Positions 1 to 51,211 of a stretch of DNA of 64,000 bases are shown in pieces. Position numbers and translations under genes: made by a program. The stretch lies in the NCBI GenBank assembly GCA_002238905.1, contig MPNG01000001.1, positions 12,599-76,598 of the forward strand. The letters run 5' to 3'. Within the stretch, counting starts at the first letter, position 1. Each line of letters begins with the position of its first letter. The notes under the pieces are model-generated. The model searched no databases. It saw nothing but the letters and a program-made list of their open reading frames with translations, and had not been told where the DNA came from. Source of the DNA: Alphaproteobacteria bacterium bin98 (GTDB taxonomy: Bacteria > Pseudomonadota > Alphaproteobacteria > Bin98).

Positions 1-574
1 AATACTGATAGTATAACTCGGCGAATAAAGAATTATCATTATCACAGAATTCGTAGCATGAAGATAGAAGGTAATGGTAAGCTTTCATATATTTTACTTT
101 CCACTTTGAATGCTCCGCATTCCCGTTTGAATGAAGTTCCCACGAATATATTTCTTTCAAAAAACAAAAAGCTTGCATAAAAAGTGATGGATTAAGATGA
201 AAATCATCACTTAACATATTCTCAGCTTCCTTTTCTATTATTGCCTGATCTGCTGTAGGGTTTGTTTTTCTGTCGCATTGCGTAAGAATATCGAGTATTG
301 GTTCTGCAAATACTTGTAACTTCGAAGGATCTTTTATGTTCATAAATGGTTCCCTCTTCAACTGAGCTAGCAAAGCGTATCGGTGATCAAGGGCGATATC
401 AGCTTGAGCGCGTCGCCAACAAGAAACACGCACAGCTGTTGTTTTATGTGGCTTATCAGATAAGTAAGACTGTCTCGCGTCACTCGCCTCTTTAAGTAGC
501 GCATTATTCCAAAGGATATCAAAATCACTGCCATGCGCGTGCCAACAAATTAAGAATAATAGTAGTAAGTTCAT
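1..574 (-). CDS. Secreted paralog-family protein, partial. The leader starts at 574 and the C-terminus runs off the window start. Subfamily B.
   Basis: Reverse-strand ATG at 572-574 gives MNLLLLFLICWHAHGSDFDILWNN...NMLSDDFHLNPSLFMQAF...YLLSSCYEFCDND, open to position 1. It resembles 3596..4201 and 4689..5288. Confidence 0.6.
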   Translation of the reverse strand, partial: MNLLLLFLICWHAHGSDFDILWNNALLKEASDARQSYLSDKPHKTTAVRVSCWRRAQADIALDHRYALLAQLKREPFMNIKDPSKLQVFAEPILDILTQCDRKTNPTADQAIIEKEAENMLSDDFHLNPSLFMQAFCFLKEIYSWELHSNGNAEHSKWKVKYMKAYHYLLSSCYEFCDNDNSLFAELYYQY

Positions 575-1823: not shown

Positions 1824-2384
1824 AAATTGAATGCGTATCGATACGAAGCTGTTTTTGATTTTCAGAAAAAGTCTGTATAACAATAAGAGGCGTTGTTTAT
1901 TAATCATAATACTATTGCATAAAAGTGCGTGCTGTCCTCGCATATCATGCCACAACACAACAATTGGCACATCTTTATAAATATGATGAGGACTCACAAG
2001 AGCGATCAAATTTTTTTCCACACTTCACAAATACCTTCTTTCATCGCAACTGTTTATAGTGCTACTTGCAAGTATGCATGATGCATTAAACCAGGTTTTT
2101 GTGAGAATATTAACATTATCTAACCAGCCTGAGTGAAACTGAGAGCACAAAAAGCATGCATGCTGCACGTTTTGTATAGAGGTGTAGTTGCGTTAATTCT
2201 GGTATCTGTCAGATTTTTTATAGTAGCGCAAATCCTATACGCAGATTATGTATTTATAGCCGTTATGCAAATAATCCTTTATGTATGATGATGTATGATG
2301 CCAGCATCTAGCAACGTTGTGCTCTAAAAAATGACTGCTTATAATGAGTAGAAAGACAATAATCAACCCCTAAAGCATTATCTC

Positions 2385-2440
2385 CACGAAATAGTATAAA
2401 TCATCGCTTTAGGCATCTATAGTATCAAAATTAATCAGTA
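2385..2440. repeat. Short intergenic repeat (ATCTCyACGrAATAGTATAAATyATCryTTTAGGCATCkAT..TATCAAAAT), copy 1 of 3
   Basis: Similar copies lie at 12455..12510 and 21915..21965, each just downstream of the stop of a minus-strand family gene or pseudogene. Confidence 0.5.
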
Positions 2441-2605
2441 AAATACCCGACTTCCAACTAGCTTTTCAAAGATCAATCACTAAAAAGAGTGTTTTTCTGT
2501 TCTTATTTAGAGCTTTTTGCATTTCTTTCGACTTAATGCAGACAAGCAAAGGTCAGAAACAATCTTCTACACTCAAGTAGTAGAGCCTTATCATCATATA
2601 TTGTT

Positions 2606-3355
2606 TCAATCTATCTCCTCCATGTAATGAAATGTCAGAATAAATTTTCTCAAGCGTTCAGAAGCCCAAATTTGTCTCCCCATACAGAAGCCTTCTAAAG
2701 ATGATAATAAGTATAGACATGCAGCATTGTATTGTGTCTCTAATGCTATTCTGCGAGGAGATACTTGGTATTTACGAAATAATTGCTTATATTCTGAATC
2801 TCTTTCAAATTCAGAAAAAAGATAAAAGAAGAGTTCTAGATCAAGTTGTTGGGCAAATCGCAGCTGTATGAAAGTCTTAAGATCATCTGGCTCAATCAAA
2901 GGGTTGCGTGAGGATATTCTTGTAGCAGTAAGAGCTAGTATCTTTTCAGAAGTCAGTTGATGATGTTCGGTCAAAGACTGTTCCATAACAGCCTTTACTT
3001 GTTTTGAAAAATTATGTAACAAGGTAAATCGCAAAGAAGAATAATGTTCCCGCGACAAGGCGTTTTGTAAGGTGGATGCCAAAATTTCTTTTTGTGTCTC
3101 TAATAACTTTTGATCTCCCCACTCTTTTAGCGATGGGTCAGCATGCCTGCGACGCAAACACTTAGATAGTCGAGAAATAGAATTAGAAAAACAGTGCAGT
3201 AGTGTGCCCCAACAGCTATTATCACTCCAGTTATTATAACTTATGCAGAGTGTCTGTATGGGGGGGGATTTTTTGTCCTTACACCGATCATCGGCGTTTT
3301 CTAAAGCTCCATGGAGATGAAAGCAGAGCAAAAATAATAATATATATGTCATCAA
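2606..3355 (-). CDS. Secreted paralog-family protein (subfamily A, HHQLTSEKILALTATRI type)
   Basis: 249-aa ORF with leader MMTYILLFLLCFHLHGA and C-terminal YNAACLYLLSSLEGFCMG. There is an SD AAGGTG before the ATG. It is a paralog of 13441..14406. Confidence 0.7.
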   Translation of the reverse strand: MMTYILLFLLCFHLHGALENADDRCKDKKSPPIQTLCISYNNWSDNSCWGTLLHCFSNSISRLSKCLRRRHADPSLKEWGDQKLLETQKEILASTLQNALSREHYSSLRFTLLHNFSKQVKAVMEQSLTEHHQLTSEKILALTATRISSRNPLIEPDDLKTFIQLRFAQQLDLELFFYLFSEFERDSEYKQLFRKYQVSPRRIALETQYNAACLYLLSSLEGFCMGRQIWASERLRKFILTFHYMEEID

Positions 3356-3520
3356 TACACCTTATTTGTCAATACTAGATTACACGAGAATGAAATTAAA
3401 ACAAAGATCTCACTTACTCGCACTAAACAAAATCAATGCACCAAATGCTTTTTAAAAAGTTGATGTTTTTAGCAAAACAATCATTATTTAAAGCAATGAA
3501 GATAAATGTGAAGGTGAGAC

Positions 3521-3556
3521 ATTCAGAGGTGCCCCCTTAACCACTCACCTCTGAAT
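3521..3556 (-). terminator. Stem-loop downstream of 3596..4201 (possible terminator)
   Basis: An 11-bp perfect inverted repeat attcagaggtg / cacctctgaat with a 14-nt loop lies about 40 bp past the stop. It is followed on the minus strand by a moderately T-rich tract. It is duplicated at 4617..4652. Confidence 0.3.
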
Positions 3557-3595
3557 ATTCTTGCAAACTGTCGTAAAGCCTCTCCAATTTTGAAC

Positions 3596-4201
3596 TCAAT
3601 CCTTTTCTGTGAGACCGGTTAGGGAACGCCAGGCTTTATAACAAGCAATAGCTTCCTTCTGGCGCTCACAGAAATGCAAACAAGATAATAGAAGAGACTT
3701 ATAAGCTTTTACATATTTTGCCAACACAAGATCTGGATTATCCTGATTACAGCCATCGGTTACAGTAAGCATACAGCTTTGTCCAGTATAAGACAGAGCA
3801 TGCATGAAGGTTTCTGGAGTAAGATGGAAGCAAGGACTTAGCATATTGCTAGCTTGCTCTTTCATTTTGTCCTCACTTATGTCAGGATGTTTTTCGGTGA
3901 AATACTCTAAAAGTATATCCCGCAGTCCGTCTGCAAAAGCTTTTACTTCCTTAATGTTTTCCATTTGACAAATTGCTTGCGTCCGCAAGTGATCCGACAC
4001 ACGTTTTCTCCAAGGATTTTTGAAAGCAGTTTGACCTACGTCCCACCAAGAACACTGTAGAGTTAGTTCTAGAGGTGACATCGCACGCAGTTGATCTATT
4101 CTTGTGATCATATATTGTTCTAACGGACTATATTCACTCACACCCTCATCAGCTCCAGACACGTGCAAACAAATCAAAAATAATAGTGGTATGAATTTCA
4201 T
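3596..4201 (-). CDS. Secreted paralog-family protein (subfamily B)
   Basis: The ORF is 3596..4234. The likely start is the internal Met at 4201, giving leader MKFIPLLFLICLHVSGA. It has an EKHPDIS motif and C-terminal LLLSCLHFCERQKEA. It is a paralog of 4689..5288. Confidence 0.7.
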   Translation of the reverse strand: MKFIPLLFLICLHVSGADEGVSEYSPLEQYMITRIDQLRAMSPLELTLQCSWWDVGQTAFKNPWRKRVSDHLRTQAICQMENIKEVKAFADGLRDILLEYFTEKHPDISEDKMKEQASNMLSPCFHLTPETFMHALSYTGQSCMLTVTDGCNQDNPDLVLAKYVKAYKSLLLSCLHFCERQKEAIACYKAWRSLTGLTEKD

Positions 4202-4247
4202 AGTTTTTTCCTCATAGTCAATATAAATATGCATTGTATATCGTATA

Positions 4248-4451
4248 TCATTTCAGCCGTGAAAGCAAATTTAAAACTATAATATTGCATTTCATGAATA
4301 TCTCCAATCTAGCGGAGTGCGTATAAAATGCTATAAATTTAGTGCGCCAAGATCCCACTTGTTTTACCAAAATCATGCACCTATCATCGGTGTTTTCTAA
4401 AGCTCGATGGAGATGAAAAAAGAGCAAAGATGATAATATATATGTCATCAA
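4248..4451 (-). pseudogene. Truncated copy of the 2606..3355-type gene (N-terminal 25 aa conserved, then diverged and stopped)
   Basis: MMTYILSSLLFFHLHRALENTDDRC compares with MMTYILLFLLCFHLHGALENADDRC. The DNA upstream, 4442..4690, is about 95% identical to 3356..3600. Confidence 0.5.
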
Positions 4452-4690
4452 TACACCTTGTTTGTCGATACTATATTACACGCAAATGAAATTAAAACAA
4501 GGATCTCACTTACTCGCACTAAACAAAATCAATGCACCAAATGCTTTTTAAAAAGTTGATGTTTTTAGCAAAACAATCATTATTTAAAGCAATGAAGATA
4601 AATGGGAAGGTGAGACATTCAGAGGTGCCCCCTTAACCACTCACCTCTGAATATTCTTGCAAACTGTCGTGCCTCTCCAATTTTGAAATC
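4442..4690. repeat. Tandem segmental duplication. The spacer 3356..3600 is re-used upstream of the second subfamily-B gene.
   Basis: A near-identical roughly 245-bp block includes the stem-loop 4617..4652. The unit gene A + spacer + gene B is duplicated as pseudo-A + spacer + gene B'. Confidence 0.75.
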
Positions 4691-5288
4691 AATCCTTTTC
4701 TGTGGGAACGATTAGGCGATGCCAGGTTTGATAATAAGAAATAGCTACCTTATTACCATCACAGAAATTTAAACAAGATAGTAGAAGATTCTTATAAGCT
4801 TGTACATATTTTGCGTTCACAGCATCTGGATTCCCCTGATTACGGATATCGCTTATATCCAGCAGATATCTTTCTTCAGAAAAACACAAAGCTTGCATGA
4901 AGATTTCTGGACTAAGATGGAAGCGAGGACTTAGCATATTGATCGCTTGCTCTTTCACTCTGGAATAACTTATGTCAGGATGCTTTTCTGTCTGATACTC
5001 TAAAAGTATCGTCAGCAATGGGTCTGCAAAACCTTTTAATTCCTTAATGTTTTCCATTTGACTAATTGCTTGCGTCTGCAAGTGATCCGACACACGTTTT
5101 CTCCAGGGATTTTTGAAATTAGCTTGATTTAGTCTCCAACAAGAACACTGTAGAGCTTGTTCTAGAGGTGGTAGCTGACGCACTGCATCTAATCTTAGGC
5201 ATAATTCTTTTAACGCACTCTGACAACACGCATCCTCATCAGATCCATACACGTGCAAACAAAGGAAAAATAGTAGTATGAATTTCAT
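4689..5288 (-). CDS. Secreted paralog-family protein (subfamily B)
   Basis: 199 aa with leader MKFILLFFLCLHVYGS, an EKHPDIS motif and LLLSCLNFCDGNK. It is about 60% identical to 3596..4201. Confidence 0.7.
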   Translation of the reverse strand: MKFILLFFLCLHVYGSDEDACCQSALKELCLRLDAVRQLPPLEQALQCSCWRLNQANFKNPWRKRVSDHLQTQAISQMENIKELKGFADPLLTILLEYQTEKHPDISYSRVKEQAINMLSPRFHLSPEIFMQALCFSEERYLLDISDIRNQGNPDAVNAKYVQAYKNLLLSCLNFCDGNKVAISYYQTWHRLIVPTEKD

Positions 5289-5690
5289 AGTTTTTATCCA
5301 TAATCAATATACAAGTGAGTACTTAGGATCATTATATATCATTTATTTGTTTCAACAATGATTGAGATTGCATGAATTTGACACAATACAGAAAAATCTT
5401 TCAATTTCTATGTACCAAATGGTTTTTAAGAGGAAGGTAGAGCACGAAAAAGCATGGTTCTGTATGGATAGATTTGGCTTAATAGAATATCAACTTATTG
5501 CCCAACTGCTTTAAGCAATAAAGGTTACTCTCTTTGTATTTTCAAATCAACTGAATCAAGATAAACGTCGACGATCAGTAGTCTTTTGAGCAAGTGGATC
5601 AATTTTTGCAGGTTTTGCCTCAATCCAGATTATTTCTCTTGGATACCCAAGGAATATTCTATCAAGTGAAAAAAAATCAAAAGTGTCTCT

Positions 5691-6398
5691 CTACGAATGA
5701 GCTCTCTTAACACGCTTTGCTACCGATCTTTCAACGTTAACTTCAATAATGTCAAGGATCTCTTCCTGCCATAAAGAATAGTGTACATCAGATCGTACTA
5801 AGAAGTTGTCACAAAAACCATCGAAAGAGCTTAGGAGGTGATAATACATTCTTTGACATTTTTGATCATCACTTGAAACATCAGATGCTGAGAATGCATA
5901 TTCTCGTTCCAATAAAGCAAAAGAATGATAGTAAAGCGTTAGATCAAGATGGAAGTTTTTCTTTTCCATCTCAGGCACCTGCTTTGCCACCAACCCATCA
6001 GATATGATGGGATGCTTTTTTGTATAAACTTTCACAAGAACCTTGAGTACTAATTGTGCGATAGGCTTGAGTTCAAATAGTTTTGACGCCTCAGACAAAT
6101 TTATTTTCTTCATAATATTTTGAAACGCTGTTCTGAGTGTCGTATCCAAACAGCCTTCAGAGTAGAATGGCTCCAGAGGAGCATCACACACCATTCTGAT
6201 TCTTTCATCCAAAGAGTTTTGAGCTACATCCCACAAAGTGGCCTGCGTAGCTTTTTCCCCAAATGTCAGGGATGCACAACAGAAAGAAAGTCTTTTCTTT
6301 TTTGCCTCTTCTATAGCTATAGCAGAAAGGCACTCTGCGCTATAGCTAGCCTGTAAACAAGTTAAGGTTGAAAATAATAATATTAATCGCAATTTCAT
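5691..6398 (-). CDS. Secreted paralog-family protein (subfamily D)
   Basis: 235 aa with leader MKLRLILLFSTLTCLQAS, a KKHPIIS motif and YHLLSSFDGFCDNF. It is a paralog of 27992..28684, and the 3' flanks are homologous too. Confidence 0.7.
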   Translation of the reverse strand: MKLRLILLFSTLTCLQASYSAECLSAIAIEEAKKKRLSFCCASLTFGEKATQATLWDVAQNSLDERIRMVCDAPLEPFYSEGCLDTTLRTAFQNIMKKINLSEASKLFELKPIAQLVLKVLVKVYTKKHPIISDGLVAKQVPEMEKKNFHLDLTLYYHSFALLEREYAFSASDVSSDDQKCQRMYYHLLSSFDGFCDNFLVRSDVHYSLWQEEILDIIEVNVERSVAKRVKRAHS

Positions 6399-6519
6399 AC
6401 ACTTATTATTTATTTTTTTTTTTTTGATGTCAATTCATAGACTCGTATTTTGCAAGCGATCATCATCCCAATAGAGCAGTGTAGATAAAACATTGCAGAA
6501 TTCCGGCAATCACCAGCAC

Positions 6520-7584: not shown

Positions 7585-9696
7585 CTAGGCATGCAGTCGC
7601 GGCTCAATTTCCATTGCTTTGCGCCTCACTTCTTCTATTGCTTTGCGCCTCACTTCTCCTATTGATTGGCGCCTTTCGCGCCTCACTCCCCTTTCTTTTT
7701 GAATCATTTCTTCCATTTCTTTTTGAATTATTTTTTCCATTGCTTTAGCTCGAACGACTCTTATTTCTTTCATTTCTTTTTTCATATCTCGAGCAAGAAG
7801 AAACAGTGGACGGTTCTCCACAAAGGGTAAGAAATGGTCTATGTCTTCACCTCTTATATTTCTTAAAGTTTTTTTAGATTTACATAAATTGAGTATATAA
7901 TTATGGCTACGATTTGCATCTGTAAGAATCTCTCTCACAGTTTTTGCCCTGACCTCTTTTGCAGGCCACCTGACCTTGGGGGTGAAATCAGCTACAGGTA
8001 GTGCAAAAAGGTCTTGAAAGTCCAAAAATAATAGATAACCTTTTCTTAATATTGAATTTCTATAGTGTGAGTGTTCTGGACACGCCAAGGCACGCTCCAC
8101 AAGAGGCCTCGCTCTTTTTCTAAAAGGTTCTATTCTTTCCTCCATTTCTGAAGAAACGGAAGATGGTAAACACATTATGCGAGTCAAACTATCAATATCC
8201 AAACAAGGGTCCAAAAACGCTAGCGGTATTCCAGACATGATACACACGGCCTCTGCCTCATAATCCTGCTCATCAATGTACAACTTAAACATCTGTTTTT
8301 CAGAAATAGCGTCTGTATTATACAGAACACGGATACTCCTTAATTTTTCTTTTAAATTTTCCCCACTCCATTCATCACAGCAAAGACCAGAATGCATATC
8401 ATATAAGATTTTTGCATAAACAACTAATTGCATATTTAAAGCTTTATTCTCCCCTTCCCCTTGCATTAATGAGATACATTCTTTTTCCAAAACAGCCGAA
8501 GAAGGCAATCCTTGAGCCCTTTGTTTTCTTTGATTATAAGTATATACCATGATACCTAGAAGATCCTTTCTTGTTGAAAGTTTTTTCATACAGTCTTTTT
8601 GGAGCGGCCAATCCACAAAATTTAATGGAGAGAGTTTACCTTCATATTCTTTTATAAATAGATCCTTTACACGGAGCTTTATTTTTGCAAGAGCATCTTG
8701 CACATTTGGATCTTCTTCACATTTTCTCAAGTATGCAAAACCTCTCTTCTGGATGTCTGCCCCTTCTCTGAGAAACAATTCATAATTTGTATCTATGCAG
8801 CGATCTTTAGAAAATGATATTTTAGCTGCCATCGAACACACAACACTTGCATCTATAAAACCATCCACAGGAACCTTGAGGTGTAAGTGTTCGAGCGGAT
8901 GATCCATAAAACCTTCCATACATTCACTAACATAGTGCAAACCCTGTTCATGCAACATCCAAAAAAGAATATCTTTAATATGTTCAAAACAACCTCCATC
9001 TTTTTTCAGCCTTAAAGCTTCATTCCATAGTGGTCGAAATTCCTCCAAAGCTATAGCAAAAAATTTTGCAAAAGGCCCTTTTGTTATAGCATCTTGCTCC
9101 AACTGATGCAGAGCCATATCATGATGCAGAATCACAGATCCAAGGCCTTCATAAGCATCATGTACTACCACAGGAGTATTCAAATCTTTTGGTACACTCA
9201 AAAGATATTTATATTTATCGCAAAGCATTAATGTCAGAAAATCTTCCTCCGAGAATCCACCATTCTCAGTCATAACAAACACAAACTCTCTTTCTGCGAC
9301 TCTCCTCAAGCCTTCTAACTCTGCTTCATCTACAATAATTCTCAGCGCCATACAGTCACGGTAGTGTAAAGAAAGTGTAAACCTCAAAAAATCTTTAGGT
9401 ATTTTCCGCAATGATCGAGTGAAAAGTTCTTGTATACTAGCGTGGTAAACGCTACCTAATCCACAGTTCAATTCAAATGCATAGGGACTCTTCTTATATA
9501 AATCAGATTCAAGCATATCCGCTATTTTTGACATAGGGATGAATCTTTTTTCCAGTTCATTCATCGCTTCCACAAGGAAAGGTAATTTTTTCCTCTGAGC
9601 TACACTCCATTGTGGCCAGATAGCCTCACAGGATGATTCTTGGCTTGAAATTGCGCCATGCGCGCAGCAAAAAGTAAATAATAATATAAGTATCAT
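7585..9696 (-). CDS. Large secreted protein (about 703 aa) with a C-terminal charged tandem repeat. Function unknown.
   Basis: The ORF is 7585..9765. The likely start at 9696 gives leader MILILLFTFCCAHGA. The body has no recognisable domain. The C-terminus is RRKAIEEVRRKAMEIE repeats. Confidence 0.6.
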   Translation of the reverse strand: MILILLFTFCCAHGAISSQESSCEAIWPQWSVAQRKKLPFLVEAMNELEKRFIPMSKIADMLESDLYKKSPYAFELNCGLGSVYHASIQELFTRSLRKIPKDFLRFTLSLHYRDCMALRIIVDEAELEGLRRVAEREFVFVMTENGGFSEEDFLTLMLCDKYKYLLSVPKDLNTPVVVHDAYEGLGSVILHHDMALHQLEQDAITKGPFAKFFAIALEEFRPLWNEALRLKKDGGCFEHIKDILFWMLHEQGLHYVSECMEGFMDHPLEHLHLKVPVDGFIDASVVCSMAAKISFSKDRCIDTNYELFLREGADIQKRGFAYLRKCEEDPNVQDALAKIKLRVKDLFIKEYEGKLSPLNFVDWPLQKDCMKKLSTRKDLLGIMVYTYNQRKQRAQGLPSSAVLEKECISLMQGEGENKALNMQLVVYAKILYDMHSGLCCDEWSGENLKEKLRSIRVLYNTDAISEKQMFKLYIDEQDYEAEAVCIMSGIPLAFLDPCLDIDSLTRIMCLPSSVSSEMEERIEPFRKRARPLVERALACPEHSHYRNSILRKGYLLFLDFQDLFALPVADFTPKVRWPAKEVRAKTVREILTDANRSHNYILNLCKSKKTLRNIRGEDIDHFLPFVENRPLFLLARDMKKEMKEIRVVRAKAMEKIIQKEMEEMIQKERGVRRERRQSIGEVRRKAIEEVRRKAMEIEPRLHA
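7600..7700. repeat. In-frame tandem repeat of about 24 bp, 3 copies (attgctttgcgcctcacttcttct), encoding the RRKAxEEV repeats of 7585..9696
   Basis: A direct repeat is visible in the sequence at 7606-7690. Confidence 0.6.
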
Positions 9697-9948
9697 ATTC
9701 TTGTTGAAGAGTAGCATATTTGCATTACAAATGAAAATCCCAGTGTCTGCAATTATTGAGAACAAACAAGAGCTATTAAATGGATTTTTTGGATTAGTCT
9801 TCGTTTTTATTCAGCATGAAGTCAACATGCTTAAATGCAGGATCTACTCGGCAGAATGATACTGCAAGCGGAATAGTGTAAGATGCAAAACTCTAGTGAC
9901 ACTGCTTATTTAAAGAGATATATTAAATACGTGAATAAAGAGATATTT

Positions 9949-12290: not shown

Positions 12291-12454
12291 ATCTTTGCCT
12301 CGATAGTTAAAAACTCATCCGCAATCTCTAGAAGATAGCCACTTATCTTACTATGAGATACCATGAACTCACATTCTTTTATGAATTATGCGGAAGAATA
12401 AGCGTGGAAGCAAATAAAACGCAATAATATTAACATTCGCAAACTCTAAAAAAG

Positions 12455-12510
12455 TATCTCTACGGAATAGTATAAATTATCATTTTAGGCATCGATGCTA
12501 TCAAAATGTA
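12455..12510. repeat. Copy 2 of the intergenic repeat seen at 2385..2440 and 21915..21965
   Basis: ctctacggaatagtataaattatcattttaggcatcgatgctatcaaaatg. Confidence 0.5.
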
Positions 12511-12546
12511 TAAGTAAAAAAATCTCATCACCCCTTCTCAGAAAGA

Positions 12547-39725: not shown

Positions 39726-41030
39726 TCATTTAAAAGGAGTTTCTGGAATAGCTATGATACGAAAACCAGGCAGATCGACTGTTGATAAGTCTCCTGGCAA
39801 CTCAAGCATTGTGCATCCAGGACCCTCTAATGAGTATTGCGCATAGTGAGAAAAAGGCTTATCTTCTCTGGGATCAACTCGAAAGTGACAGCCAGCAACA
39901 TACACATGTAGCTTATCACTGACATTTTCAACTTTGTAAACAAACATTTCTGTCCCTTTATAAGCGAGTATTGTGCCTGCCCTTAAATCTACTTCGTCAC
40001 CTTTCTGGCAGATCTCGAAAAGCTCTTTCTGAGTGCGGCGTACTGCAGAGTTTATAATGGTAGAGGCGAAAGAGCTTGAGTCATGAGATTGTCCTGTTAT
40101 ATAGGCTCCCAAACCTCCCATTTGAAATCCTCCGCCCAATACTTGAGGGCAGAACCAGTAGTCAAACCCAGAAACCTCATATTTTTGATAAAAAGACCCT
40201 TCCGAAGTATTGAAACCTGTCAGAATGTCTAGAGGAGTAGGCTGTCCTCGCAATCGAGATATTTGTACTGTACCTGGAAAATATTCTTCAGCAGCTTTTA
40301 TCATTCCATCCAGAGTGTTATTTCCACGTGTCATCATAATGTGAAAAAGATAGGCATGAGCAAAAGGCATAAATCCTTCATGAGGATTTGGTTTCTGCAT
40401 TTCATCTTGTTTTTGTGCTTTGGCATACCAAGCAAATCCATCCTCTGTGCAAGAGTTATATTGCCAAATATGCATCCACTCTTTTGCATAGTCGTGTACG
40501 ATTCTAGTAGCTTTGCTTAGAAGATCGGGTGCAATATTGTGATTCACTGGCAAGACATTTGGGATTTGATCGTAAAGTTTTGAGTGTTGTTGCGCTTTAT
40601 AAAGCATAGATGCTTGCACATAAAGGAAGCTTTTTTGCGCAGAAGGACTCCAACAGTTAGGAGGGCACGATTCAAAGAAACCTTGGGATTCTTGTACATC
40701 TTCTGAAGAATCACCTACTTGAATCACACCGTATGTTGCTATTTGCGCTAGGAAGAGCCTTTCAGGGTGCTTAGCAGGCATTGCCGCAAAAAATTTTGTT
40801 TGAATAATCATAGATGCTATTTCTTTTGATTTTTCTTTATCTGCATAATCCCCCCAATCTTTTACAAGTTGATCGCGACTCATGATCCTATTTTTTGCAA
40901 AATTTGCAAAATCAGGGAGATTCAAAGGAGAATCTGCAGGTAACACACACAAAGGAATTGTTTTAACTGCTGACTGCGCCGTCGGAACTAACGCAAAAAG
41001 TAATAGGAAATAAGTTATATTCATACTCAA
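39726..41030 (-). CDS. Secreted 434-aa protein of unknown function (not a family member)
   Basis: It has signal peptide MNITYFLLLFALVPTAQSA. The body is Cys- and Gly-rich (GGGFQMGGLGAYITG) with no recognisable motif. Confidence 0.55.
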   Translation of the reverse strand: MSMNITYFLLLFALVPTAQSAVKTIPLCVLPADSPLNLPDFANFAKNRIMSRDQLVKDWGDYADKEKSKEIASMIIQTKFFAAMPAKHPERLFLAQIATYGVIQVGDSSEDVQESQGFFESCPPNCWSPSAQKSFLYVQASMLYKAQQHSKLYDQIPNVLPVNHNIAPDLLSKATRIVHDYAKEWMHIWQYNSCTEDGFAWYAKAQKQDEMQKPNPHEGFMPFAHAYLFHIMMTRGNNTLDGMIKAAEEYFPGTVQISRLRGQPTPLDILTGFNTSEGSFYQKYEVSGFDYWFCPQVLGGGFQMGGLGAYITGQSHDSSSFASTIINSAVRRTQKELFEICQKGDEVDLRAGTILAYKGTEMFVYKVENVSDKLHVYVAGCHFRVDPREDKPFSHYAQYSLEGPGCTMLELPGDLSTVDLPGFRIIAIPETPFK

Positions 41031-41201
41031 AATTATAACAAAAAAACTGAAAAATCACCTCACATGCCTTAAAATGATAAAAAAGTAATCATTCTGACAA
41101 AAAATAGATCATGACTTTGACAAAAGTCACATTTTCTGTTGCAAAAAAAGGATTATTGATTTATAATGTCTACATAAAATAATAATAAAAAATAGAATAA
41201 A

Positions 41202-41339
41202 ATGCGAAAAGTCAGATTGTTAATATTGGTGCTACTGCTCATTGTGATTAAAAAGGGGATATTAGATGGAGAGAATACTGTAAAAGTGGAAGAAAACAAC
41301 ACAAATGTTGTGAAACGCATTGTCAGTTATTTTGAATAA
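41202..41339 (+). CDS. Possible small membrane-anchored ORF (45 aa) immediately upstream of alr
   Basis: It encodes MRKVRLLILVLLLIVIKKGILDGENTVKVEENNTNVVKRIVSYFE. It is below the size cutoff of the ORF track and has no SD. Confidence 0.2.
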   Translation: MRKVRLLILVLLLIVIKKGILDGENTVKVEENNTNVVKRIVSYFE

Positions 41340-41411
41340 CGCAGTATAATTTTGTCCAAAGAGCATATTTTTTCACTAAAAGATGACACAATATACTCAA
41401 GGAGATGCATT

Positions 41412-42488
41412 GTGCTAGAAGCCAATAGCCATGTTTTAATATCCAAGCAAAGTTTAAGAAGCAATTATCAATTTTTTGCTGATTATGTCTCTTCGGCTAA
41501 TGTTGCAGTGGTGTTGAAAAATAATGGATTTGGATATGGCTATGCAGAAATAACACCCGCACTCTATGCACAAGGCTGTAGGCGGTTTTACGTTGCAGAT
41601 GTAGAAGAAGCGCTCCGTATGCGGTCTTTTATGCCACATCAAGATGTTATTATAGCCCCCCTCTTTCCTCTAATTTCTCAAAACTCTCTTCACACTATGC
41701 GCAAGGCCGACCTTACCCCCTCCTTGAACAGCGTTGAAGATATTCAAACATACCTACGCTATGGGTGTGGAAAATCTTGTGTGGTGCGCGTAAGTTTTGG
41801 TCTCAATGTGGGTGTGCCTTATCAAAAAATTGCAGAATTAAAAGGTGAATTAGGCAAAATCAAGCAACTCACCGTTTTGGGGCACCTTCCTTTTGCAGAT
41901 GACAAAAATTCTTCTCATAACACAAATGCTCTAAAGGATATGATCGCACTGCGTCAACATTTGCCAGATGCGCGTTTTAGTTTGGCTTCTACAGCGGCAA
42001 TATTCCTTGGAAGTGAGTTTTTTATGGATGAAGCGCGTATAGGTGTGGGTTTGTTTGGTGCTGTTCATTTTTCTAACAACAATGCTGCAAAAAATGCGCA
42101 AGACAAAATTTCCTTTGCTTTAAAATTAAAAGCTTACACACGACATTCTTATTCTGTAAAAAAAGGTCAGATCCTTGGGTACGAAAGCATCGCAAAAGAA
42201 GATATGCAGATGGTGGTTGTGAGCTGTGGGTACGCAAATGGCCTTCCGATACAAAAAAGTAAAGAGCCACTCTCACTTCCATATCAAGGCAAATCTCTAA
42301 GATTAGTTCCAGAAACTCTCTCAATGTATAACGCATCTTTTGCTACTAACGATATTATTGCTTCTGGAGAAGAAGTCACTCTTCTAAAATCCTTTGAAGA
42401 TAGCATGCAATTTCGTCGTATAGAAAAAATCAACCACTCCGAATTGCTTCTGCGCATAAGCCGCGCCCACCAACAATTTATTCCGTAA
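41412..42488 (+). CDS. alr: Alanine racemase-like PLP enzyme (fold-type III), divergent
   Basis: The ORF is 41352..42488. The likely GTG start at 41412 lies 7 nt after an AAGGAG. Motifs are AVVLKNNGFGYG (compare AVVKANAYGHG), VKKGQILGYES (compare GExVGYG), VVVSCGYANGLP (compare PIGYADG) and LSMYNASFATND (compare VSMDMxxVD). Confidence 0.55.
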   Translation: MLEANSHVLISKQSLRSNYQFFADYVSSANVAVVLKNNGFGYGYAEITPALYAQGCRRFYVADVEEALRMRSFMPHQDVIIAPLFPLISQNSLHTMRKADLTPSLNSVEDIQTYLRYGCGKSCVVRVSFGLNVGVPYQKIAELKGELGKIKQLTVLGHLPFADDKNSSHNTNALKDMIALRQHLPDARFSLASTAAIFLGSEFFMDEARIGVGLFGAVHFSNNNAAKNAQDKISFALKLKAYTRHSYSVKKGQILGYESIAKEDMQMVVVSCGYANGLPIQKSKEPLSLPYQGKSLRLVPETLSMYNASFATNDIIASGEEVTLLKSFEDSMQFRRIEKINHSELLLRISRAHQQFIP

Positions 42489-42677
42489 ACACTATGTTTG
42501 TGTGAAGGACAGCTTCTTTGTCAATATGAGCATTTTTAATTCAACCGTGATTAATATCATGACTTTAAAAATAATGTAACGCTATCATGTCGTAATATTA
42601 TGATTTTCAATTTTCTTACATGATCATGGAGCGAAAAAAGTTTTTGAATCAGAAAATATATTAATCATATGGGTGAG

Positions 42678-43318
42678 TTAAACAAGCATAAAGATCAATT
42701 CGCTCAGCACAACATCACGAGCCTCGTATTCATACATGTGTGTGAGACGCCAAATATTATATTTTCGTTCAGCGACTTCCTTATTATCCGCACAGTAAGC
42801 TTGAAAAGCTGATAAGAGGAGCCAATACTGCTGCGTATATATTGGGTCTAGCGAAGAGAGATCTTTTTTATATCTTGCCTCTAAGAGTAGTGAGTGACCC
42901 CTCTCTCTCAATACTAAAAAAGCATAACAAAAGATCTTTGCATCAAGCTCAAAGTACACATCTAGGAGATTTTTCTCATAATTCACATCACCTGCTCTGA
43001 AGACATCCCTTTTTCAGAAGGCATCAAGTACATTTTCTATTTGCTCTGAGAAAGCCATTAATTCTTTAAGATTCCTTATATCAAAAAAATTTTGAGGGTT
43101 TAATATATCTTGACAGGTTTTCCTGCAGGTGAAACATTCTTGATTTTTTGCCACCTAATAGTGCGCATAGCTTGCTCCTGGATTATAATCCGTTCACTAA
43201 TTTTCTTGAGTCTGAGAAGATCAGCAGAATTCTCTAACGATATTGCGTCATCTGCTTCATGCGCCAGTGAATAGATTAAAAATAGTAAGATTAATTTGAT
43301 AAATGCATTTCATAGAGA
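42678..43318 (-). pseudogene. Decayed tandem copy of 43379..44029 (subfamily K)
   Basis: The C-terminal ORF 42678..42986 (…ERKYNIWRLTHMYEYE) has an upstream remnant MKCIYQINLTIFNLFTGA*. DNA 43060-43320 aligns to 43760-44020 with stops. Confidence 0.6.
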
Positions 43319-43378
43319 AACCGTATCACATCTTCATCATACCCTCAATCAATTTAAGAGTGGATGGGTTGAAAGGGC

Positions 43379-44029
43379 TTAGATTAGCTCCATGTTCTGC
43401 TGCATCACAAAATCACGAACCTTGTGTTCCTGTAGGTGTGTGAGACGCCAAATATTATATTTTCGTTCAGCGACTTCCTTATTATCATCAGAGTAAGCTT
43501 GAAAAGCTGATAAGAGGAGATGATACTGCTCCGCATATATTGGGTCTAGCGAGCAATCTTGCCTCAACATTATATAGCTTGCCTCTAATAATACTGCGCC
43601 ACACTTCTTTCTCAATACTAGAAAAGCATCATAGAAGGTCTTTGCATCAAGCTCAAAGAGCACATCTAAGAACTTTTGTGAAGAACCCACCTCCCCTGTT
43701 CTGAATATATTATTGCTTTTGCAGAAGGTGTCAAGCTTATTTTCTATGCGCTCTGAGAAAGCCATTAATGTTTCAAGATTGCTTATATCAAGAAAATTGT
43801 AAGGATTTAATATATCTTGACAGGCTTGCCTGCAAGTGAAACATTTTTGATTTTCTTTCCAGCGAACACAGCGCATATCTTGCCTCTCGATAGGCAAACA
43901 GCACTTGATTTCCCTTATTCTTTGAAAATCAGCATAATTCTCCAAATCGATTTCGGCACCTGCTCCATGCGCCAGTGAATAGATTAAAAATAATAAGATT
44001 AATGTCATGCTCATAAATGTACCTTTCAT
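43379..44029 (-). CDS. Secreted paralog-family protein (subfamily K, ERKYNIWRL type)
   Basis: 216 aa. The alternative start at 44014 gives leader MTLILLFLIYSLAHGAGAE. The C-terminus is LLLSAFQAYSDDNKEVAERKYNIWRLTHL. Confidence 0.7.
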   Translation of the reverse strand: MKGTFMSMTLILLFLIYSLAHGAGAEIDLENYADFQRIREIKCCLPIERQDMRCVRWKENQKCFTCRQACQDILNPYNFLDISNLETLMAFSERIENKLDTFCKSNNIFRTGEVGSSQKFLDVLFELDAKTFYDAFLVLRKKCGAVLLEASYIMLRQDCSLDPIYAEQYHLLLSAFQAYSDDNKEVAERKYNIWRLTHLQEHKVRDFVMQQNMELI

Positions 44030-44505
44030 AGAAAAATCATATCACATGTTCTTCATATCCTCACTTTGTCAATCAATACATTTAACAAAAGTATTATTTT
44101 TCTCATCACTCACATGATCTGTTGACAAAATGAAGTGACCAATTTGGAATTTGGATAGACAACTTCTAGCGGTTGGTGAGCCCAATCACAGTATTTTTTC
44201 TTATATTTCTCTTTATTTTTGTTTGAGAGATTTCATCAATGCCAACGAAGAATATAATGCTTTGTTAGCTCTTGTAATAGCATATAGAGATAGACCTCTA
44301 TTGCAATTTTGTACATTATTAAAAAATCAAAAATTTGAGAAGACTGTTTACACTTTTCCTCTAGAGAGAAAATCAGCTATTTCAACACACCTCCATGCCT
44401 CTTGAACGCAGTCTATGTTCGCAATCAAAAATTTATATAGTAAGGTACAGGTTTTGTGCTGACTATTTAGCGTATTCTCCCGCTTCAAGATTTTAGCCTA
44501 TTCTG

Positions 44506-45125
44506 CTAGGCATTATTAATCCACGTACTCTTCTTCCTTGAGCAAATCCTTAGTAACATTCCTTCGTGGAGGTGTATAAAACGACAAATATTAAACTTTC
44601 GTTCAGATTCATCTTGAATTTCTAAAGAGTAATTTCGAAGATCTGATAAGAGACTATGATACTCCTGAATGTATCTTAAGCCTTGCAGAGGAGGGCCGCT
44701 CTCGCATTGATATTCTCTCTCTAAGCATCGTAAATGCACATTTCCTCTCAAGAGTGAAAAAGCACAGAAGAAGGTTAATGCATTAAGTTCAAATCTCCTC
44801 TTTAGGGACTCTGACATATCAAAATACACAACATCCCAATCGCCTATTAGATCAATTTTGTGTCAGAATTCTGCAAGCATCATATTAAGAAAAACTGCAG
44901 GATCGAGATTCTTTTCAAAATATTCTCGGACAGAATCAAAACGTTGTTGATCTGAGGTCCAGTTAAAAGCGCGCATACCTCGCTCTTTAACTGTTAAACG
45001 AAGCAATGAATAAAACCTTTGTGCGTCAGCAACATCCTCAAGAGGATGGCTCTCTCTGAAAGACGGTTTGACATAAGTTAATGATGCTCCATGAGCTTTT
45101 GAATAGATAAAAATTAAAAAAACAA
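44506..45125 (-). pseudogene. Chimeric pseudogene. It joins a C-terminal fragment of a subfamily-K gene (44506..44829) to an N-terminal fragment of a 46140-type gene (44870..45125).
   Basis: 44506..44829 encodes ...ELNALTFFCAFSLLRG...ERKFNICRF. 44870-45320 is about 95% identical to 46187-46640, and a TGA separates the two parts. Confidence 0.55.
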
Positions 45126-45321
45126 TAACATAAATTTTTTTCTCAACATGAGCATTTTCAATGAAACCGTAATTAATATTATCACTTGAAAAAAATAATT
45201 TATAACGCTGACATGTCGAATATTATTATTTTTAATCTGTTTACATGCTCATGGCGCTAAAAAAGTTTTTGAACCAGATAGACTATATTAATCATCTTGA
45301 TGAATTAAGGGTCTTGGAAAC

Positions 45322-46050
45322 TCAGTGCGGCCCAGCTCTCCTCCGCATCACAGCATCACGAACATTAGGTCCCTCGAGGTATCTGAGACGCCAAATATTA
45401 TATTTTCGTTCAGCTTTTTCATGATTCTCCACACAGTAAGCTTCCATAGCTGATAAGAGGTCATGATACTGCTGGATGTATATTGGCGGAGACAAATATT
45501 GCTGAAATTCTGGCTGATCGTACAGACAGTAATTTTGAAAAGATAATAAGAGGTCGCGACACTCCGGCGTGTACGCTGAGTTTGACGGAGACAAATATTG
45601 CTGAGATAATTTTTTATATCTTTGCGCTGATAATACTGACGTAACATGGCCTCTCAACATTGCAAAAGCACAGAAGAAGCTGAATGCATTAAGCTCAAAG
45701 AGCTCATCTGTGACAATGTTCACAACAGACTTCATATCAGCATAAGCGATTAAATTATGGTGCTGGTTTTTCTTCAGAAGCTCTTCTAATTCCACTGAAA
45801 ATGCCATTAATTCTTCAAGATCGACCATCTCAATCCACTTCTGAGAATCGAGTATTTTTTTACAAGCTTCCCCGCAATTCCCAAAATGTTCTTGATTTTT
45901 TATCCTGTTGAGCTCCCGCACACCTTGCCTTTCTACTGACAGACGGTTGAGTGCAGTTATTCTTTGCGCATCAGCAAACTCCTCCAGAATGGTGGTGGGC
46001 TCTGCTCCATGCGCCAGTGAATAGATTAAAAATAATAAGATTAATGTCAT
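45322..46050 (-). CDS. Secreted paralog-family protein (subfamily K), copy 1 of the tandem pair
   Basis: The ORF is 45322..46098. The start at 46050 gives leader MTLILLFLIYSLAHGAEP. The C-terminus is LLSAMEAYCVENHEKAERKYNIWRLRYL. Confidence 0.7.
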   Translation of the reverse strand: MTLILLFLIYSLAHGAEPTTILEEFADAQRITALNRLSVERQGVRELNRIKNQEHFGNCGEACKKILDSQKWIEMVDLEELMAFSVELEELLKKNQHHNLIAYADMKSVVNIVTDELFELNAFSFFCAFAMLRGHVTSVLSAQRYKKLSQQYLSPSNSAYTPECRDLLLSFQNYCLYDQPEFQQYLSPPIYIQQYHDLLSAMEAYCVENHEKAERKYNIWRLRYLEGPNVRDAVMRRRAGPH

Positions 46051-46139
46051 GAATAAACCTCTAATACAAAGTTTATATCCTATTCTCAGCTTTATCAATG
46101 AAGAAATTTAAAAAAATGATTGTTCCCCTCATGTTCACA

Positions 46140-46499: not shown

Positions 46500-46638
46500 T
46501 TGAAAAAAAATAATTTATAATGCTGACATGTCGTTAATATTATTATTTTTAATCTGTTTACATGCGCATGGAGCTAAAACAGTTTTTGAACCAGATAGAT
46601 TATATTAATCATCTTGATGAATTAAGGATCTTGGAAAC

Positions 46639-51109: not shown

Positions 51110-51182
51110 TTAAATCACTACAGTCAATCTATTATAATATTCTTATATTTTTAAAATTAAAAGAAAAAGCAATACTTTATTA

Positions 51183-51211
51183 TTGACGAGATGCTTGTAT
51201 AGCATTACAAT
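51183..51211 (+). promoter_or_regulatory. Sigma70-type promoter for the MFS transporter operon
   Basis: TTGACG (51183-51188), a 17-nt spacer and TACAAT (51206-51211), about 30 nt upstream of the ATG at 51241, with an AAGGA SD. Confidence 0.5.

What the first reader, a model, noticed from the sequence alone, without database searches (positions are those of the whole stretch)
2606..5288. Second tandem duplication: gene A + spacer + gene B re-duplicated with gene A truncated
3356..3600 and 4442..4690 are about 95% identical, including a perfect 11-bp stem-loop. The copy of gene A (4248..4451) keeps only 25 conserved codons of the leader before diverging and stopping. The downstream B genes (3596..4201 and 4689..5288) are about 60% identical. 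The near-identity of the spacer, compared with the divergence of the coding regions, suggests the spacer is functionally constrained (a promoter or terminator) or has been homogenised.
Basis: seen in the sequence. Interest (0 to 1): 0.5.

Follow-up and report, generated by a model that had tools for sequence, protein, structure and literature searches.

The report
Duplicated secreted-protein gene with conserved spacer
A 1.1-kb stretch carrying a secreted-protein gene and the spacer after it was duplicated in an uncultured alphaproteobacterium; the two gene copies then changed their amino acids unusually fast while about 170 bases of the spacer, including a hairpin just after the gene, stayed almost unchanged.

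Summary
Window 3282-4225 and 4378-5311 are a 945-bp direct repeat, 85% identical. All genes lie on the minus strand, in the order B2, spacer2, A' (a 67-codon remnant), B1, spacer1, A.

The contrast between spacer and CDS has two causes.
- B1 and B2 diverge mostly by amino-acid changes: dN 0.26, dS 0.12, ratio 2.1, p=0.008. Two other recent pairs in the window also exceed 1. MFS transporter controls give 0.25-0.3.
- A 168-nt spacer core (3406-3573) has 1 substitution. Synonymous sites show 11% divergence, the A' leader 9.5%, and the 50 nt next to A's start 12% (p about 4e-8).

The stop-proximal ~95 nt with the 11-bp hairpin also follows a third B paralog on another contig. That paralog is only about 33% identical in protein and 60% in CDS nucleotides. 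Its flank keeps 72 of 98 columns and 21 of 22 stem bases, and its one stem change (U-A to U-G) still pairs in sense RNA. That part is therefore constrained, most likely as an mRNA 3'-end element of B genes.

For the other 94 invariant nt (A's candidate promoter and leader), I cannot separate constraint from gene conversion.

The genes belong to an orphan secreted helical-protein family that I found only in this MAG. Interest is moderate.

The parts
3282..4225 (-). Repeat copy 1: the first 25 codons of A, spacer1, all of B1, and about 24 nt upstream of B1.
   Evidence: blastn finds 945 bp at 85.2% identity to 4378-5311. See also repeat finder D1/D2 and the sliding identity profile.
4378..5311 (-). 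Repeat copy 2: the A' leader, spacer2, all of B2, and about 23 nt upstream of B2.
2606..3355 (-). Gene A, 249 codons (probable ATG at 3352). It is a distant member of the same secreted superfamily.
   Evidence: ORF list. Paralog hits at 25-31% identity. The family HMM gives E=4.4e-11 (L001_11928_12680). No Pfam or NCBIfam match.
3356..3405 (-). The 50 nt next to A's start, including the AAGGTG ribosome-binding site. It diverges at a neutral-like rate.
   Evidence: 6 substitutions in 50 nt (12%), the same as synonymous sites.
3406..3499 (-). Invariant mid-core: the candidate promoter and 5' leader of the downstream gene. It contains the 12-nt palindrome CTTTTTAAAAAG.
   Evidence: 0 substitutions in 94 nt, against 10.6 expected at the synonymous rate (p=1.3e-5). 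Sequence read. No counterpart downstream of P0016.
3483..3512 (-). Promoter-like site TTCACA-18-AATAAT. In copy 2 it is TTCCCA at 4579-4608.
   Evidence: Best match in the region, 10/12. Weak evidence, because such hits are not enriched over shuffles.
3500..3595 (-). B1 3'-flank element: from the stop codon through the hairpin to ACCTTCA.
   Evidence: 2 substitutions plus a 3-nt indel relative to copy 2. 72 of 98 columns are identical to the 3' flank of the distant paralog P0016, whose CDS is only 60% identical. The covariance model scores 110-124 bits on only 3 sites in 103 kb.
3521..3556 (-). Hairpin 1: 11-bp perfect stem (13 bp if the outer A-U and a U-G wobble pair are counted) with a 14-nt loop, starting 37-39 nt after the B1 stop.
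3596..4201 (-). Gene B1, 201 codons: a signal-peptide-like N-terminus followed by an all-helical domain.
   Evidence: OXC30_00715. AlphaFold2 model with pLDDT 80.5 and 8 helices after the leader.
4226..4377 (-). Non-repeated junction between the copies. It holds the divergent tail of A', including 'MKCNIIVLNLLSRLK*', a fragment that resembles a signal peptide.
   Evidence: 30-56% identity to the region upstream of B2. 4260-4311 resembles the 5' ends of the genes starting at 18844 and 27701. Translation.
4248..4451 (-). A': a 67-codon remnant of A, probably a pseudogene fragment.
   Evidence: No gene is called here in any of 10 assemblies. The leader carries LLFLLC>LSSLLF and G>R changes.
4452..4688 (-). 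Spacer2, containing the B2 3'-flank element and the duplicated mid-core.
   Evidence: 95.8% identical to 3356-3594. Covariance model score 120 bits at 4596-4693.
4617..4652 (-). Hairpin 2, identical to hairpin 1.
4689..5288 (-). Gene B2, 199 codons.
   Evidence: OXC30_00720

Best explanation
This is a roughly 1.1-kb segmental duplication inside a large array of lineage-specific secreted-protein genes of an uncultured alphaproteobacterium. The duplicated piece carried gene B, the spacer after it, and the first 25 codons of the next gene, A. Neutral divergence since the event is about 10-12%. After duplication the two B copies were kept open and accumulated amino-acid replacements about twice as fast as silent changes (diversifying selection). 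This inflates the CDS divergence. The spacer has three parts. (i) About 95 nt directly after the B stop codon, including the hairpin, form a sequence-constrained element that belongs to B-type genes. It is most likely a 3'-UTR stem-loop that defines or protects the mRNA 3' end (inferred). (ii) The next ~94 nt have not changed at all. They most likely hold the promoter, operator or 5' leader of the downstream gene, which is A in copy 1 and the A' remnant plus B1 in copy 2 (inferred). Local gene conversion may have helped keep them identical. (iii) The last 50 nt and the duplicated A leader drift neutrally, and A' is a dead fragment. Shown here: the repeat, the rate classes, dN/dS above 1, and conservation of part (i) at a third locus. 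Inferred: that the element acts as RNA, and what it does.
For: Repeat and anatomy. Rate classes: A leader 7/74, A-proximal 6/50, mid-core 0/94, 3' element 2/96 plus an indel, against 14/124 synonymous and 4/36 four-fold sites. dN/dS for B1/B2 is 2.12 (Fisher p=0.0076), and differences by codon position are 54/41/23 (chi-square p=0.002). The same pattern appears in the pairs 45322/46639 (4.6, p=0.004) and 61687/62722 (1.5, p=0.03), while the MFS controls give 0.25-0.30. Both B ORFs remain open despite 118 differences. Third locus: the 3' flank of P0016 (OXC30_00175, another contig, next to lepB-rnc-era) matches window 3592-3509 at 78% (E=2e-12). Overall 72 of 98 columns are identical there, against 60% in the CDS, 58% at third positions and 29% beyond the hairpin. 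21 of 22 stem bases are kept, and the one change turns U-A into U-G, which pairs only in sense-strand RNA. The 3' flank of another subfamily pair (5593-5686 vs 27894-27983) is also more conserved (87%) than that pair's synonymous sites (61%). Several other family genes have 9-12-bp hairpins without U-tracts 16-33 nt after the stop. Family context: only 41 clusters match the family profile among 1.84 billion representatives. I checked P0001, P0002, P0015, P0016 and 10 further clusters, and all carry tags of the same MAG.
Against: There are no expression data, so the RNA ends, the promoter and the function of the hairpin are inferences. The hairpin has a 14-nt loop and no U-tract, so it is not a canonical intrinsic terminator. 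The genome does have canonical terminators elsewhere, for example L011 779-748. The spacer as a whole shows no excess folding energy (z=0.0 and -1.25), and Rfam gives no match. The wobble argument rests on one base pair in three sequences. Zero changes in 94 nt is more than typical promoter or leader constraint would give, which favours some gene conversion. The one core difference (3509/4605) is absent in assembly L010, which could be a polymorphism or an assembly bubble. NG86 is an approximate method and the neutral benchmark comes from small site counts. No orthologous locus from another species was found, so branch-specific rates cannot be estimated.
Confidence: 0.65

Rival explanations
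1. Homogenisation only. The core is identical because a short gene-conversion tract (about 3406-3594) was recently copied from one spacer to the other. No function is needed.
For: There is a 103-nt run without any difference, with a sharp edge at 3405/3406: 6 differences in the preceding 42 nt. The copies are tandem and only 1.1 kb apart. The mid-core has no counterpart at the P0016 locus. The only core difference is missing in one assembly.
Against: The stop-proximal half is conserved at an unlinked locus whose CDS is only 60% identical, and recent conversion between B1 and B2 cannot explain that. There is no gradient of dS towards the spacer: blocks from N- to C-terminus give 0.08, 0.07, 0.27, 0.10, 0.12. 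The sequence on both sides diverges at the synonymous rate, so a tract would have to coincide exactly with the intergenic core. This rival remains viable for 3406-3499 and is compatible with the main explanation.
Confidence: 0.25
2. The duplication is simply recent. The spacer is as diverged as neutral sites in the CDS, and the CDS only looks different because of relaxed selection.
For: Most CDS differences are non-synonymous (104 of 118). The A' leader and the A-proximal 50 nt match the synonymous rate.
Against: The core has 1/168 differences against 14/124 synonymous (p=3.8e-5 by Fisher, 3.9e-8 by binomial). Relaxed selection gives dN/dS near 1 and equal differences at the three codon positions. 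Observed values are 2.1 and 54/41/23 (p=0.002), and both 200-codon ORFs are intact.
Confidence: 0.03
3. The core is a gene of its own: a small RNA (a sense 3'-UTR-derived RNA, or an antisense RNA ending at the hairpin on the plus strand) or a small peptide. It is present in two copies.
For: There is dense conservation over about 170 nt with sharp edges. On the plus strand the hairpin is followed by AUAUUCUUG, and a similar UUCUUG follows it at P0016. Short ORFs exist, for example a 26-27-codon plus-strand ORF (about 3470-3550, read by eye) that ends in the hairpin loop (sequence).
Against: No Rfam match even at E up to 10 beyond noise. Folding z-scores are 0.0 and -1.25. At P0016 only the stop-proximal part is kept, tied to the end of the CDS, and its stem change would be a C-A mismatch in the antisense orientation. 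The one core substitution is non-synonymous in the plus-strand ORF. The putative plus-strand promoter region (3356-3405) drifts neutrally.
Confidence: 0.1
4. The hairpin region is a mobile or recombination element (REP/BIME-like repeat, MITE, or integron attC-like site) that moved with the B cassette or caused its duplication.
For: A hairpin sits at the 3' end of a small gene in a same-orientation array. The same element follows three related genes at two loci.
Against: Only 3 copies were found in 103 kb of this genome, always after B-type genes. No integrase, transposase or reverse transcriptase was found among the ORFs scanned. The loop's GTTAAGG does not fit the attC R' consensus GTTRRRY, and no R'' site is evident (read). 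There are no terminal inverted repeats or target duplications around the unit. Exact-pattern hits in 185,579 genomes are chance palindromes scoring 26 bits or less, against 110-124 bits for the true sites.
Confidence: 0.04

Closest known systems
Paralogous surface or secreted gene families with conserved non-coding flanks and divergent coding regions. From my own knowledge: the Borrelia burgdorferi erp/ospE-F 'upstream homology box' loci, and the Mycoplasma hyorhinis vlp genes with a conserved 5' region and signal peptide.
   Same: Many tandem or clustered paralogs share a conserved leader peptide. Their mature coding sequence diverges quickly, and the flanking non-coding DNA is far better conserved than the CDS.
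   Different: Here the best-documented conserved flank lies 3' of the gene (a hairpin element), not 5'. The proteins are an orphan all-helical family with no lipobox in most members. No recombination or phase-variation mechanism has been demonstrated, and the organism is known only from metagenomes.
mRNA 3' stabiliser stem-loops. From my own knowledge: REP sequences in the E. coli malE-malF intergenic region, and the Bacillus thuringiensis cry 'positive retroregulator'.
   Same: A stable stem-loop a few tens of nt after the stop codon, without an obligatory U-tract, lying between co-oriented genes.
   Different: REP elements occur in hundreds of dispersed copies with their own consensus. This element has 3 known copies, all tied to one gene subfamily. 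Its conservation also extends over about 40 nt of unpaired sequence upstream of the stem and 7 nt after it. A stabilising effect has not been tested.
Rho-independent (intrinsic) transcription terminator
   Same: Position after a stop codon, and a stem with 6 G-C pairs out of 11.
   Different: The loop is 14 nt, against a typical 3-8. No U-tract follows on the sense strand (GUCUCACCUUCA). The consensus scan did not call it.
Concerted evolution or gene conversion between tandem duplicates
   Same: A sharply bounded block of near-identity inside otherwise diverged tandem copies.
   Different: The block coincides with intergenic DNA rather than coding DNA. Half of it is also conserved at an unlinked, anciently diverged paralog.

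Membership tests
Tandem segmental duplication | Two adjacent, same-orientation copies with significant similarity over gene-scale length. | tested here: met
   945 bp at 85.2% identity with 1093-1096 bp spacing.
Tandem segmental duplication | The copies abut directly, so the end of one unit joins the start of the next. | tested here: not met
   152 bp (4226-4377) between the copies is only 30-56% identical to the region upstream of B2 and contains an unrelated signal-peptide-like fragment. The junction was remodelled, or the event was not a simple unequal crossover.
Intrinsic terminator | G+C-rich stem with a short (3-8 nt) loop. | tested here: not met
   The stem is 11 bp with 6 G-C pairs, but the loop is 14 nt.
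Intrinsic terminator | A U-tract immediately 3' of the stem on the transcribed strand. | tested here: not met
   The sense strand continues GUCUCACCUUCA, and the site is not reported by the terminator scan.
Conserved cis-acting RNA element (3'-UTR stem-loop) | Sequence conservation above the neutral rate in independent gene copies. | tested here: met
   72 of 98 columns match at P0016, against 58% at third codon positions. Between B1 and B2 there are 2/96 differences, against 11% at synonymous sites.
Conserved cis-acting RNA element (3'-UTR stem-loop) | Base pairing maintained by compensatory changes. | tested here: inconclusive
   All 33 pair cells are paired. Ten of 11 pairs never vary and one changes U-A to U-G. 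There are no double changes and only 3 sequences. A possible upstream helix shows one G-C to A-U change and one break.
Conserved cis-acting RNA element (3'-UTR stem-loop) | The element is transcribed as part of the B mRNA. | not testable with these tools
   No transcriptome data are available.
Rfam families | A match at or above a family's gathering score. | tested here: not met
   Only one tRNA in the window reaches gathering score. In 3250-3700 the best hits have E about 4 and score 13-14 bits against 60-65-bit thresholds.
Integron attC / gene cassette | R''/R' core sites (RYYYAAC ... GTTRRRY) flanking an imperfect palindrome, with an integron integrase nearby. | tested here: not met
   The core sites are absent from the element (read). 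No recombinase domain was found in the scanned ORFs.
REP/MITE dispersed repeat | Many dispersed copies that are independent of a particular gene. | tested here: inconclusive
   Only 3 copies in 103 kb, all after B-type genes. The whole genome was not available. The metagenome scan returned nothing and apparently lacks these samples.
Diversity-generating retroelement target | Adenine-specific differences between repeat copies, with a reverse transcriptase nearby. | tested here: not met
   All six substitution classes are present (15-27 each), with transitions to transversions at 45:73. No RT domain was found.
Positively selected paralog pair | dN/dS significantly above 1 with intact reading frames. 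| tested here: met
   NG86 gives 2.12 with p=0.0076. Third codon positions are the least diverged (23, against 54 and 41). Controls give 0.25-0.30. No likelihood codon model was run.
Pfam / NCBIfam / PDB protein families (for A and B) | A significant profile or fold match. | tested here: not met

The most novel reading that the evidence does not exclude
The conserved 3' element, together with the family-wide conserved signal-peptide coding sequence at the 5' end, brackets a hypervariable cassette. The conserved blocks would then act both as shared expression signals and as homology arms for gene conversion among the dozens of paralogs. This would be an antigenic-variation-like diversification system for an orphan secreted-protein family in an uncultured, probably host-associated, alphaproteobacterium. 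Alternatively, the 170-nt core encodes a new family-specific regulatory RNA.
Probability: 0.1. Interest if true: 0.7.

Novelty: new member of a known kind. Interest (0 to 1): 0.35.

Why it matters
The locus shows that 'spacer more conserved than genes' can arise from two separate effects, and that they can be told apart from sequence alone. One effect is accelerated protein evolution. The other is a genuinely protected non-coding core. The work also exposes an orphan gene family. At least 41 sequence clusters, about 35 genes in this 64-kb window, and one 1581-residue protein with 9 copies of the domain all appear to be confined to one deep-branching alphaproteobacterial lineage. Recent duplicates in this family show dN/dS above 1, the signature expected of proteins that interact with a host or competitor. 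The 95-nt hairpin element is a candidate new cis-acting RNA motif. If transcript mapping confirmed it, it would help explain how expression of such a family is organised. None of this changes a general principle, so the finding has moderate rather than high importance.

Tried and rejected
- Pfam and NCBIfam scans of A, B1, B2 and 25 other window ORFs gave nothing for the family. Only housekeeping genes were recognised: alr, dnaE, three MFS transporters, a Na/H antiporter and a SPOUT methyltransferase.
- Rfam at gathering score and at E up to 10, plus single-strand folding of the spacer on both strands, gave no family and no excess stability.
- The search for relatives outside this organism found none.
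  - The search for homologous proteins with B1, and then with a four-member B profile, returned only proteins of the same MAG.
  - The search for related loci in genome contigs failed first for lack of conserved columns, then found no relative.
  - The hairpin pattern in metagenome contigs gave 0 hits, even though JGI contigs carrying it exist, so that collection evidently lacks these samples.
  - The hairpin pattern in genome contigs gave 15 chance palindromes in unrelated taxa, which the covariance model rejected.
All 10 assemblies are 99.94-100% identical over the stretches shared with the window, so there is no usable diversity.
- The nearest relative by DnaE (55% identity) is syntenic for alr-dnaE-MFS but carries no family gene in 23 kb, so it cannot serve as an outgroup.
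- A DGR-type mutagenesis was considered and rejected from the substitution spectrum. TGA read-through or recoding of the post-stop region was considered and rejected: the frame is closed at P0016, and dnaE is intact under genetic code 11 (my reading).
- A literature search by accession numbers returned only irrelevant papers.
Full report
**Observation.** The region holds a direct repeat. The repeat finder reports 3282-3574 vs 4378-4670 at 95% identity and 3578-3877 vs 4671-4970 at 80%. blastn joins these into one 945-bp match, 3282-4225 vs 4378-5311, 85.2% identical. The hairpin ATTCAGAGGTG-N14-CACCTCTGAAT occurs exactly twice in the window (3521-3556 and 4617-4652), against none in 100 shuffles.

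All ORFs concerned are on the minus strand. The order in the direction of transcription is:
- C (6398-5691)
- B2 (5288-4689)
- spacer2 (4688-4452)
- A' (4451-4248)
- B1 (4201-3596)
- spacer1 (3595-3356)
- A (3355-2606)

A' shares 67/74 nt and 20/25 residues with the start of A, then diverges and stops after 67 codons. None of ten assemblies calls a gene there. The same sequence, 99.94-100% identical over the stretches shared with the window, is present in contigs from ten independent ENA, JGI and NCBI assemblies. The structure is therefore not an assembly artefact, but no strain diversity is available.

**Where the copies differ.** A sliding comparison and a per-region count show four rate classes.
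- The duplicated A leader has 7 substitutions in 74 nt (9.5%).
- The 50 nt next to A's start (3356-3405, including the AAGGTG ribosome-binding site) has 6 in 50 (12%).
- The next 94 nt (3406-3499) has none.
- The 96 nt following the B stop (3500-3595) has 2, plus a 3-nt indel.

In the B coding regions, Nei-Gojobori counting gives 14 synonymous differences in 124 sites (11.3%; four-fold sites 4/36) and 104 non-synonymous differences in 473 sites (22%). That is dN 0.26, dS 0.12 and a ratio of 2.1 (Fisher p=0.0076). Differences by codon position are 54/41/23 (p=0.002 against equal numbers). The substitution spectrum is broad, with a transition-to-transversion count of 45:73.

Three site classes therefore agree on about 10-12% neutral divergence since the duplication: synonymous sites, the dead A' leader, and the A-proximal 50 nt. 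B protein sequence changes about twice as fast as that. The 168-nt core, 3406-3573, has a single change, roughly 20-fold below neutral (binomial p=3.9e-8).

**Is dN/dS above 1 believable?** The same calculation gives 0.25-0.30 for the three tandem MFS transporter genes in the window. It gives 0.6-0.95 for older family pairs. It gives 4.6 (p=0.004) and 1.5 (p=0.03) for two other recent family pairs, 45322/46639 and 61687/62722. Both B ORFs remain open over 200 codons despite 118 differences and only two one-codon indels. Relaxed selection would give a ratio near 1 and equal codon-position counts. A DGR-like adenine mutagenesis is excluded by the spectrum and by the absence of a reverse transcriptase. 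I did not run likelihood codon models.

**What the spacer contains.** Read on the sense strand, the B stop codon is followed by about 40 nt and then the 11-bp stem. The stem is 13 bp if the outer A-U and a U-G wobble pair are counted, and the loop is 14 nt. After the stem comes GUCUCACCUUCA, with no U-tract. Next is the best sigma-70-like match in the region, TTCACA-18-AATAAT at 3512-3483. Then follows about 120 nt, including the palindrome CTTTTTAAAAAG, up to A's ATG.

The promoter match is weak evidence, because such matches are no more frequent than in shuffled sequence, either here or elsewhere in this genome. The whole spacer has no excess folding energy on either strand. Rfam finds nothing.

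**The third copy.** A profile search and a B-subfamily search found a distant B paralog, P0016 (OXC30_00175). It lies on another contig of the same MAG, next to lepB-rnc-era-recO.
- Its protein is 33-38% identical to B1 and B2.
- Its CDS is 59-60% identical in nucleotides, and 58% at third positions.
- Yet the roughly 98 nt after its stop codon align with window 3595-3500 at 72 of 98 columns. blastn gives 78% over 86 nt, E=2e-12.
- Similarity vanishes (29%) just beyond the hairpin.
- 21 of the 22 stem bases are unchanged. The single change converts a U-A pair to U-G, which still pairs in RNA of the sense orientation but would be a C-A mismatch in the antisense orientation.

A covariance model built from the three copies finds only these three sites in 103 kb of this genome, scoring 110-124 bits. 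It rejects the 15 chance palindromes that an exact-pattern scan of 185,579 genomes returned, which score 26 bits or less.

This shows that the stop-proximal half of the core is under long-term constraint and belongs to B-type genes. Recent homogenisation between B1 and B2 cannot explain it. The number of B1/B2 differences in this half (2 plus an indel) is roughly what is expected if about a third of its sites are free to vary, as the P0016 comparison suggests.

**The other half.** The mid-core (3406-3499) has no counterpart at P0016 or elsewhere in the window. Zero changes in 94 nt is more than ordinary promoter or leader constraint would predict. The block has a sharp edge at 3405/3406. Its only neighbouring difference (3509/4605, in the -35-like hexamer) is absent in one short assembly, L010. 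That could be a polymorphism, a conversion event or an assembly bubble.

There is no dS gradient in B towards the spacer. I therefore cannot decide between dense functional constraint and a short gene-conversion tract for this half. If it is a promoter or leader, then in copy 2 it would now drive the A' remnant and B1.

**Not a clean tandem duplication.** For a simple unequal crossover, 4226-4377 should match the region upstream of B2. It does not (30-56% identity). It also contains an in-frame fragment, 'MKCNIIVLNLLSRLK*', that resembles the 5' ends of other family genes. The junction has been remodelled.

**Context.** The window comes from an uncultured 'Alphaproteobacteria bacterium' MAG (GCA_026710745.1).
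- DnaE is only 55-56% identical to its two nearest relatives and 42-45% to Rhodospirillales-like genomes.
- Roughly 35 ORFs in the 64 kb share an M.LILLFLICLHAYGA-type leader and weak but significant similarity to one another.
- A profile of 12 members finds only 41 clusters among 1.84 billion representative proteins, including a 1581-residue protein with nine copies of the domain. I checked P0001, P0002, P0015, P0016 and ten further clusters, and all carry locus tags of the same MAG.
- The AlphaFold2 model of B1 (pLDDT 80.5) is an eight-helix domain after the leader. It has only generic helical-bundle neighbours in the PDB and no Pfam, NCBIfam or PDB sequence match.
- A syntenic contig from the nearest relative (alr-dnaE-3xMFS) has no family member in 23 kb. 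This genome has five between alr and dnaE.

That the proteins are secreted and host- or competitor-facing is my inference from the leader, the expansion and the dN/dS values.

**Generality of conserved 3' flanks.** The 3' flank of gene C (5593-5686) is 87% identical to that of its paralog 22 kb away (27894-27983), although their synonymous identity is only 61%. In four other paralog pairs the flanks are at background similarity. Several family genes carry 9-12-bp hairpins without U-tracts 16-33 nt after the stop. Canonical terminators also exist, for example L011 779-748. A 3' stem-loop is thus a recurrent, though not universal, feature of these genes.

**Verdict.** The locus is a remodelled segmental duplication in a fast-evolving orphan secreted-protein family.

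The spacer/CDS contrast reflects two things:
- diversifying selection on B;
- a protected 168-nt core.

The hairpin half of that core is a constrained 3'-flank element of B-type genes, most likely an mRNA 3'-end or stability element. The other half is either A's regulatory leader or a conversion tract.

This is a new example of a known kind of arrangement: conserved non-coding flanks around rapidly diverging paralogs. The interest is moderate. The more interesting leads are the family itself and the candidate RNA element.

Noticed in passing
window 1-64000 (for example 1196-1774, 5691-6398, 22496-31019, 38986-47415, 56092-56886, 61687-63555): About 35 ORFs share an M.LILLFLICLHAYGA-type leader and belong to one orphan helical-protein superfamily. 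A profile finds only 41 clusters among 1.84 billion representatives. I checked P0001, P0002, P0015, P0016 and 10 further clusters, and all are from the same MAG. One member (P0010, OXC30_05670) is 1581 residues long with 9 copies of the domain.
   Followed up: partly
window 45016-46161 vs 46323-47478; 61687-62649 vs 62722-63555: Two further tandem pairs of family genes have dN/dS above 1: 4.6 (3 synonymous vs 49 non-synonymous differences, p=0.004) and 1.5 (p=0.03). In the first pair the flanks are about 91-95% identical, so they are not unusually conserved.
   Followed up: partly
window 5593-5686 vs 27894-27983: The 3' flanks of gene C (5691-6398) and its paralog 22 kb away (27992-28684) are 87% identical over 94 nt, while the genes' synonymous identity is only 61%. 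The motif AGAATATTC precedes a small hairpin here, as it does in the B 3' element.
   Followed up: partly
window 2340-2443, 12440-12519, 21867-21956: An intergenic repeat of about 80-90 nt occurs in three copies at 79-80% identity. It contains the inverted repeat CCTAAAGC...GCTTTAGG.
   Followed up: no
window 3260-3267, 6413-6425, and 15544, 17861, 23196, 28000, 36923: Homopolymer tracts. G8 lies inside gene A, 14 nt beyond the repeat boundary. T13 lies just upstream of gene C's start. Seven G or C runs of 7 or more occur in 64 kb of 37% G+C DNA, where I estimate about one by chance. These are possible slipped-strand sites. No length variation is seen among the assemblies at the two tracts they cover (3260-3267 and 6413-6425).
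   Followed up: partly
window 4605 (locus L010): The only substitution that distinguishes the two spacer cores (3509 T / 4605 G on the plus strand) is reverted in JGI assembly 3300027328, which makes the cores identical there. This could be a real polymorphism, a conversion event or an assembly bubble.
   Followed up: partly
window 41352-54856 vs locus L029: The nearest relative (DnaE 55% identical, Logan SRR7783622) keeps alr-dnaE-MFSx3 synteny but has no family gene in 23 kb. This genome has five family genes or fragments (42678-47415) inserted between alr and dnaE. The three tandem MFS genes (46-50% identical, dN/dS 0.25-0.3) are also present in the relative, so that triplication is old.
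   Followed up: partly
window 7609-7746 and 58724-59973: There are in-frame tandem repeats inside large orphan genes. Gene 7585-9765 has 24-nt units near its 3' end. Gene 57609-61223 has 105/300-nt units, about 4 copies at 78% identity.
   Followed up: no
window 19665-19803: A perfect 68-bp tandem duplication (2.0 copies, 100% identical) overlaps the start of gene 19192-19725.
   Followed up: no
window 1-573 (minus strand): The gene cut by the left end of the window is P0015 (OXC30_00700). It is a B-like paralog, 27-28% identical to B1. The covariance model finds no 3' element in the flank of this gene.
   Followed up: partly
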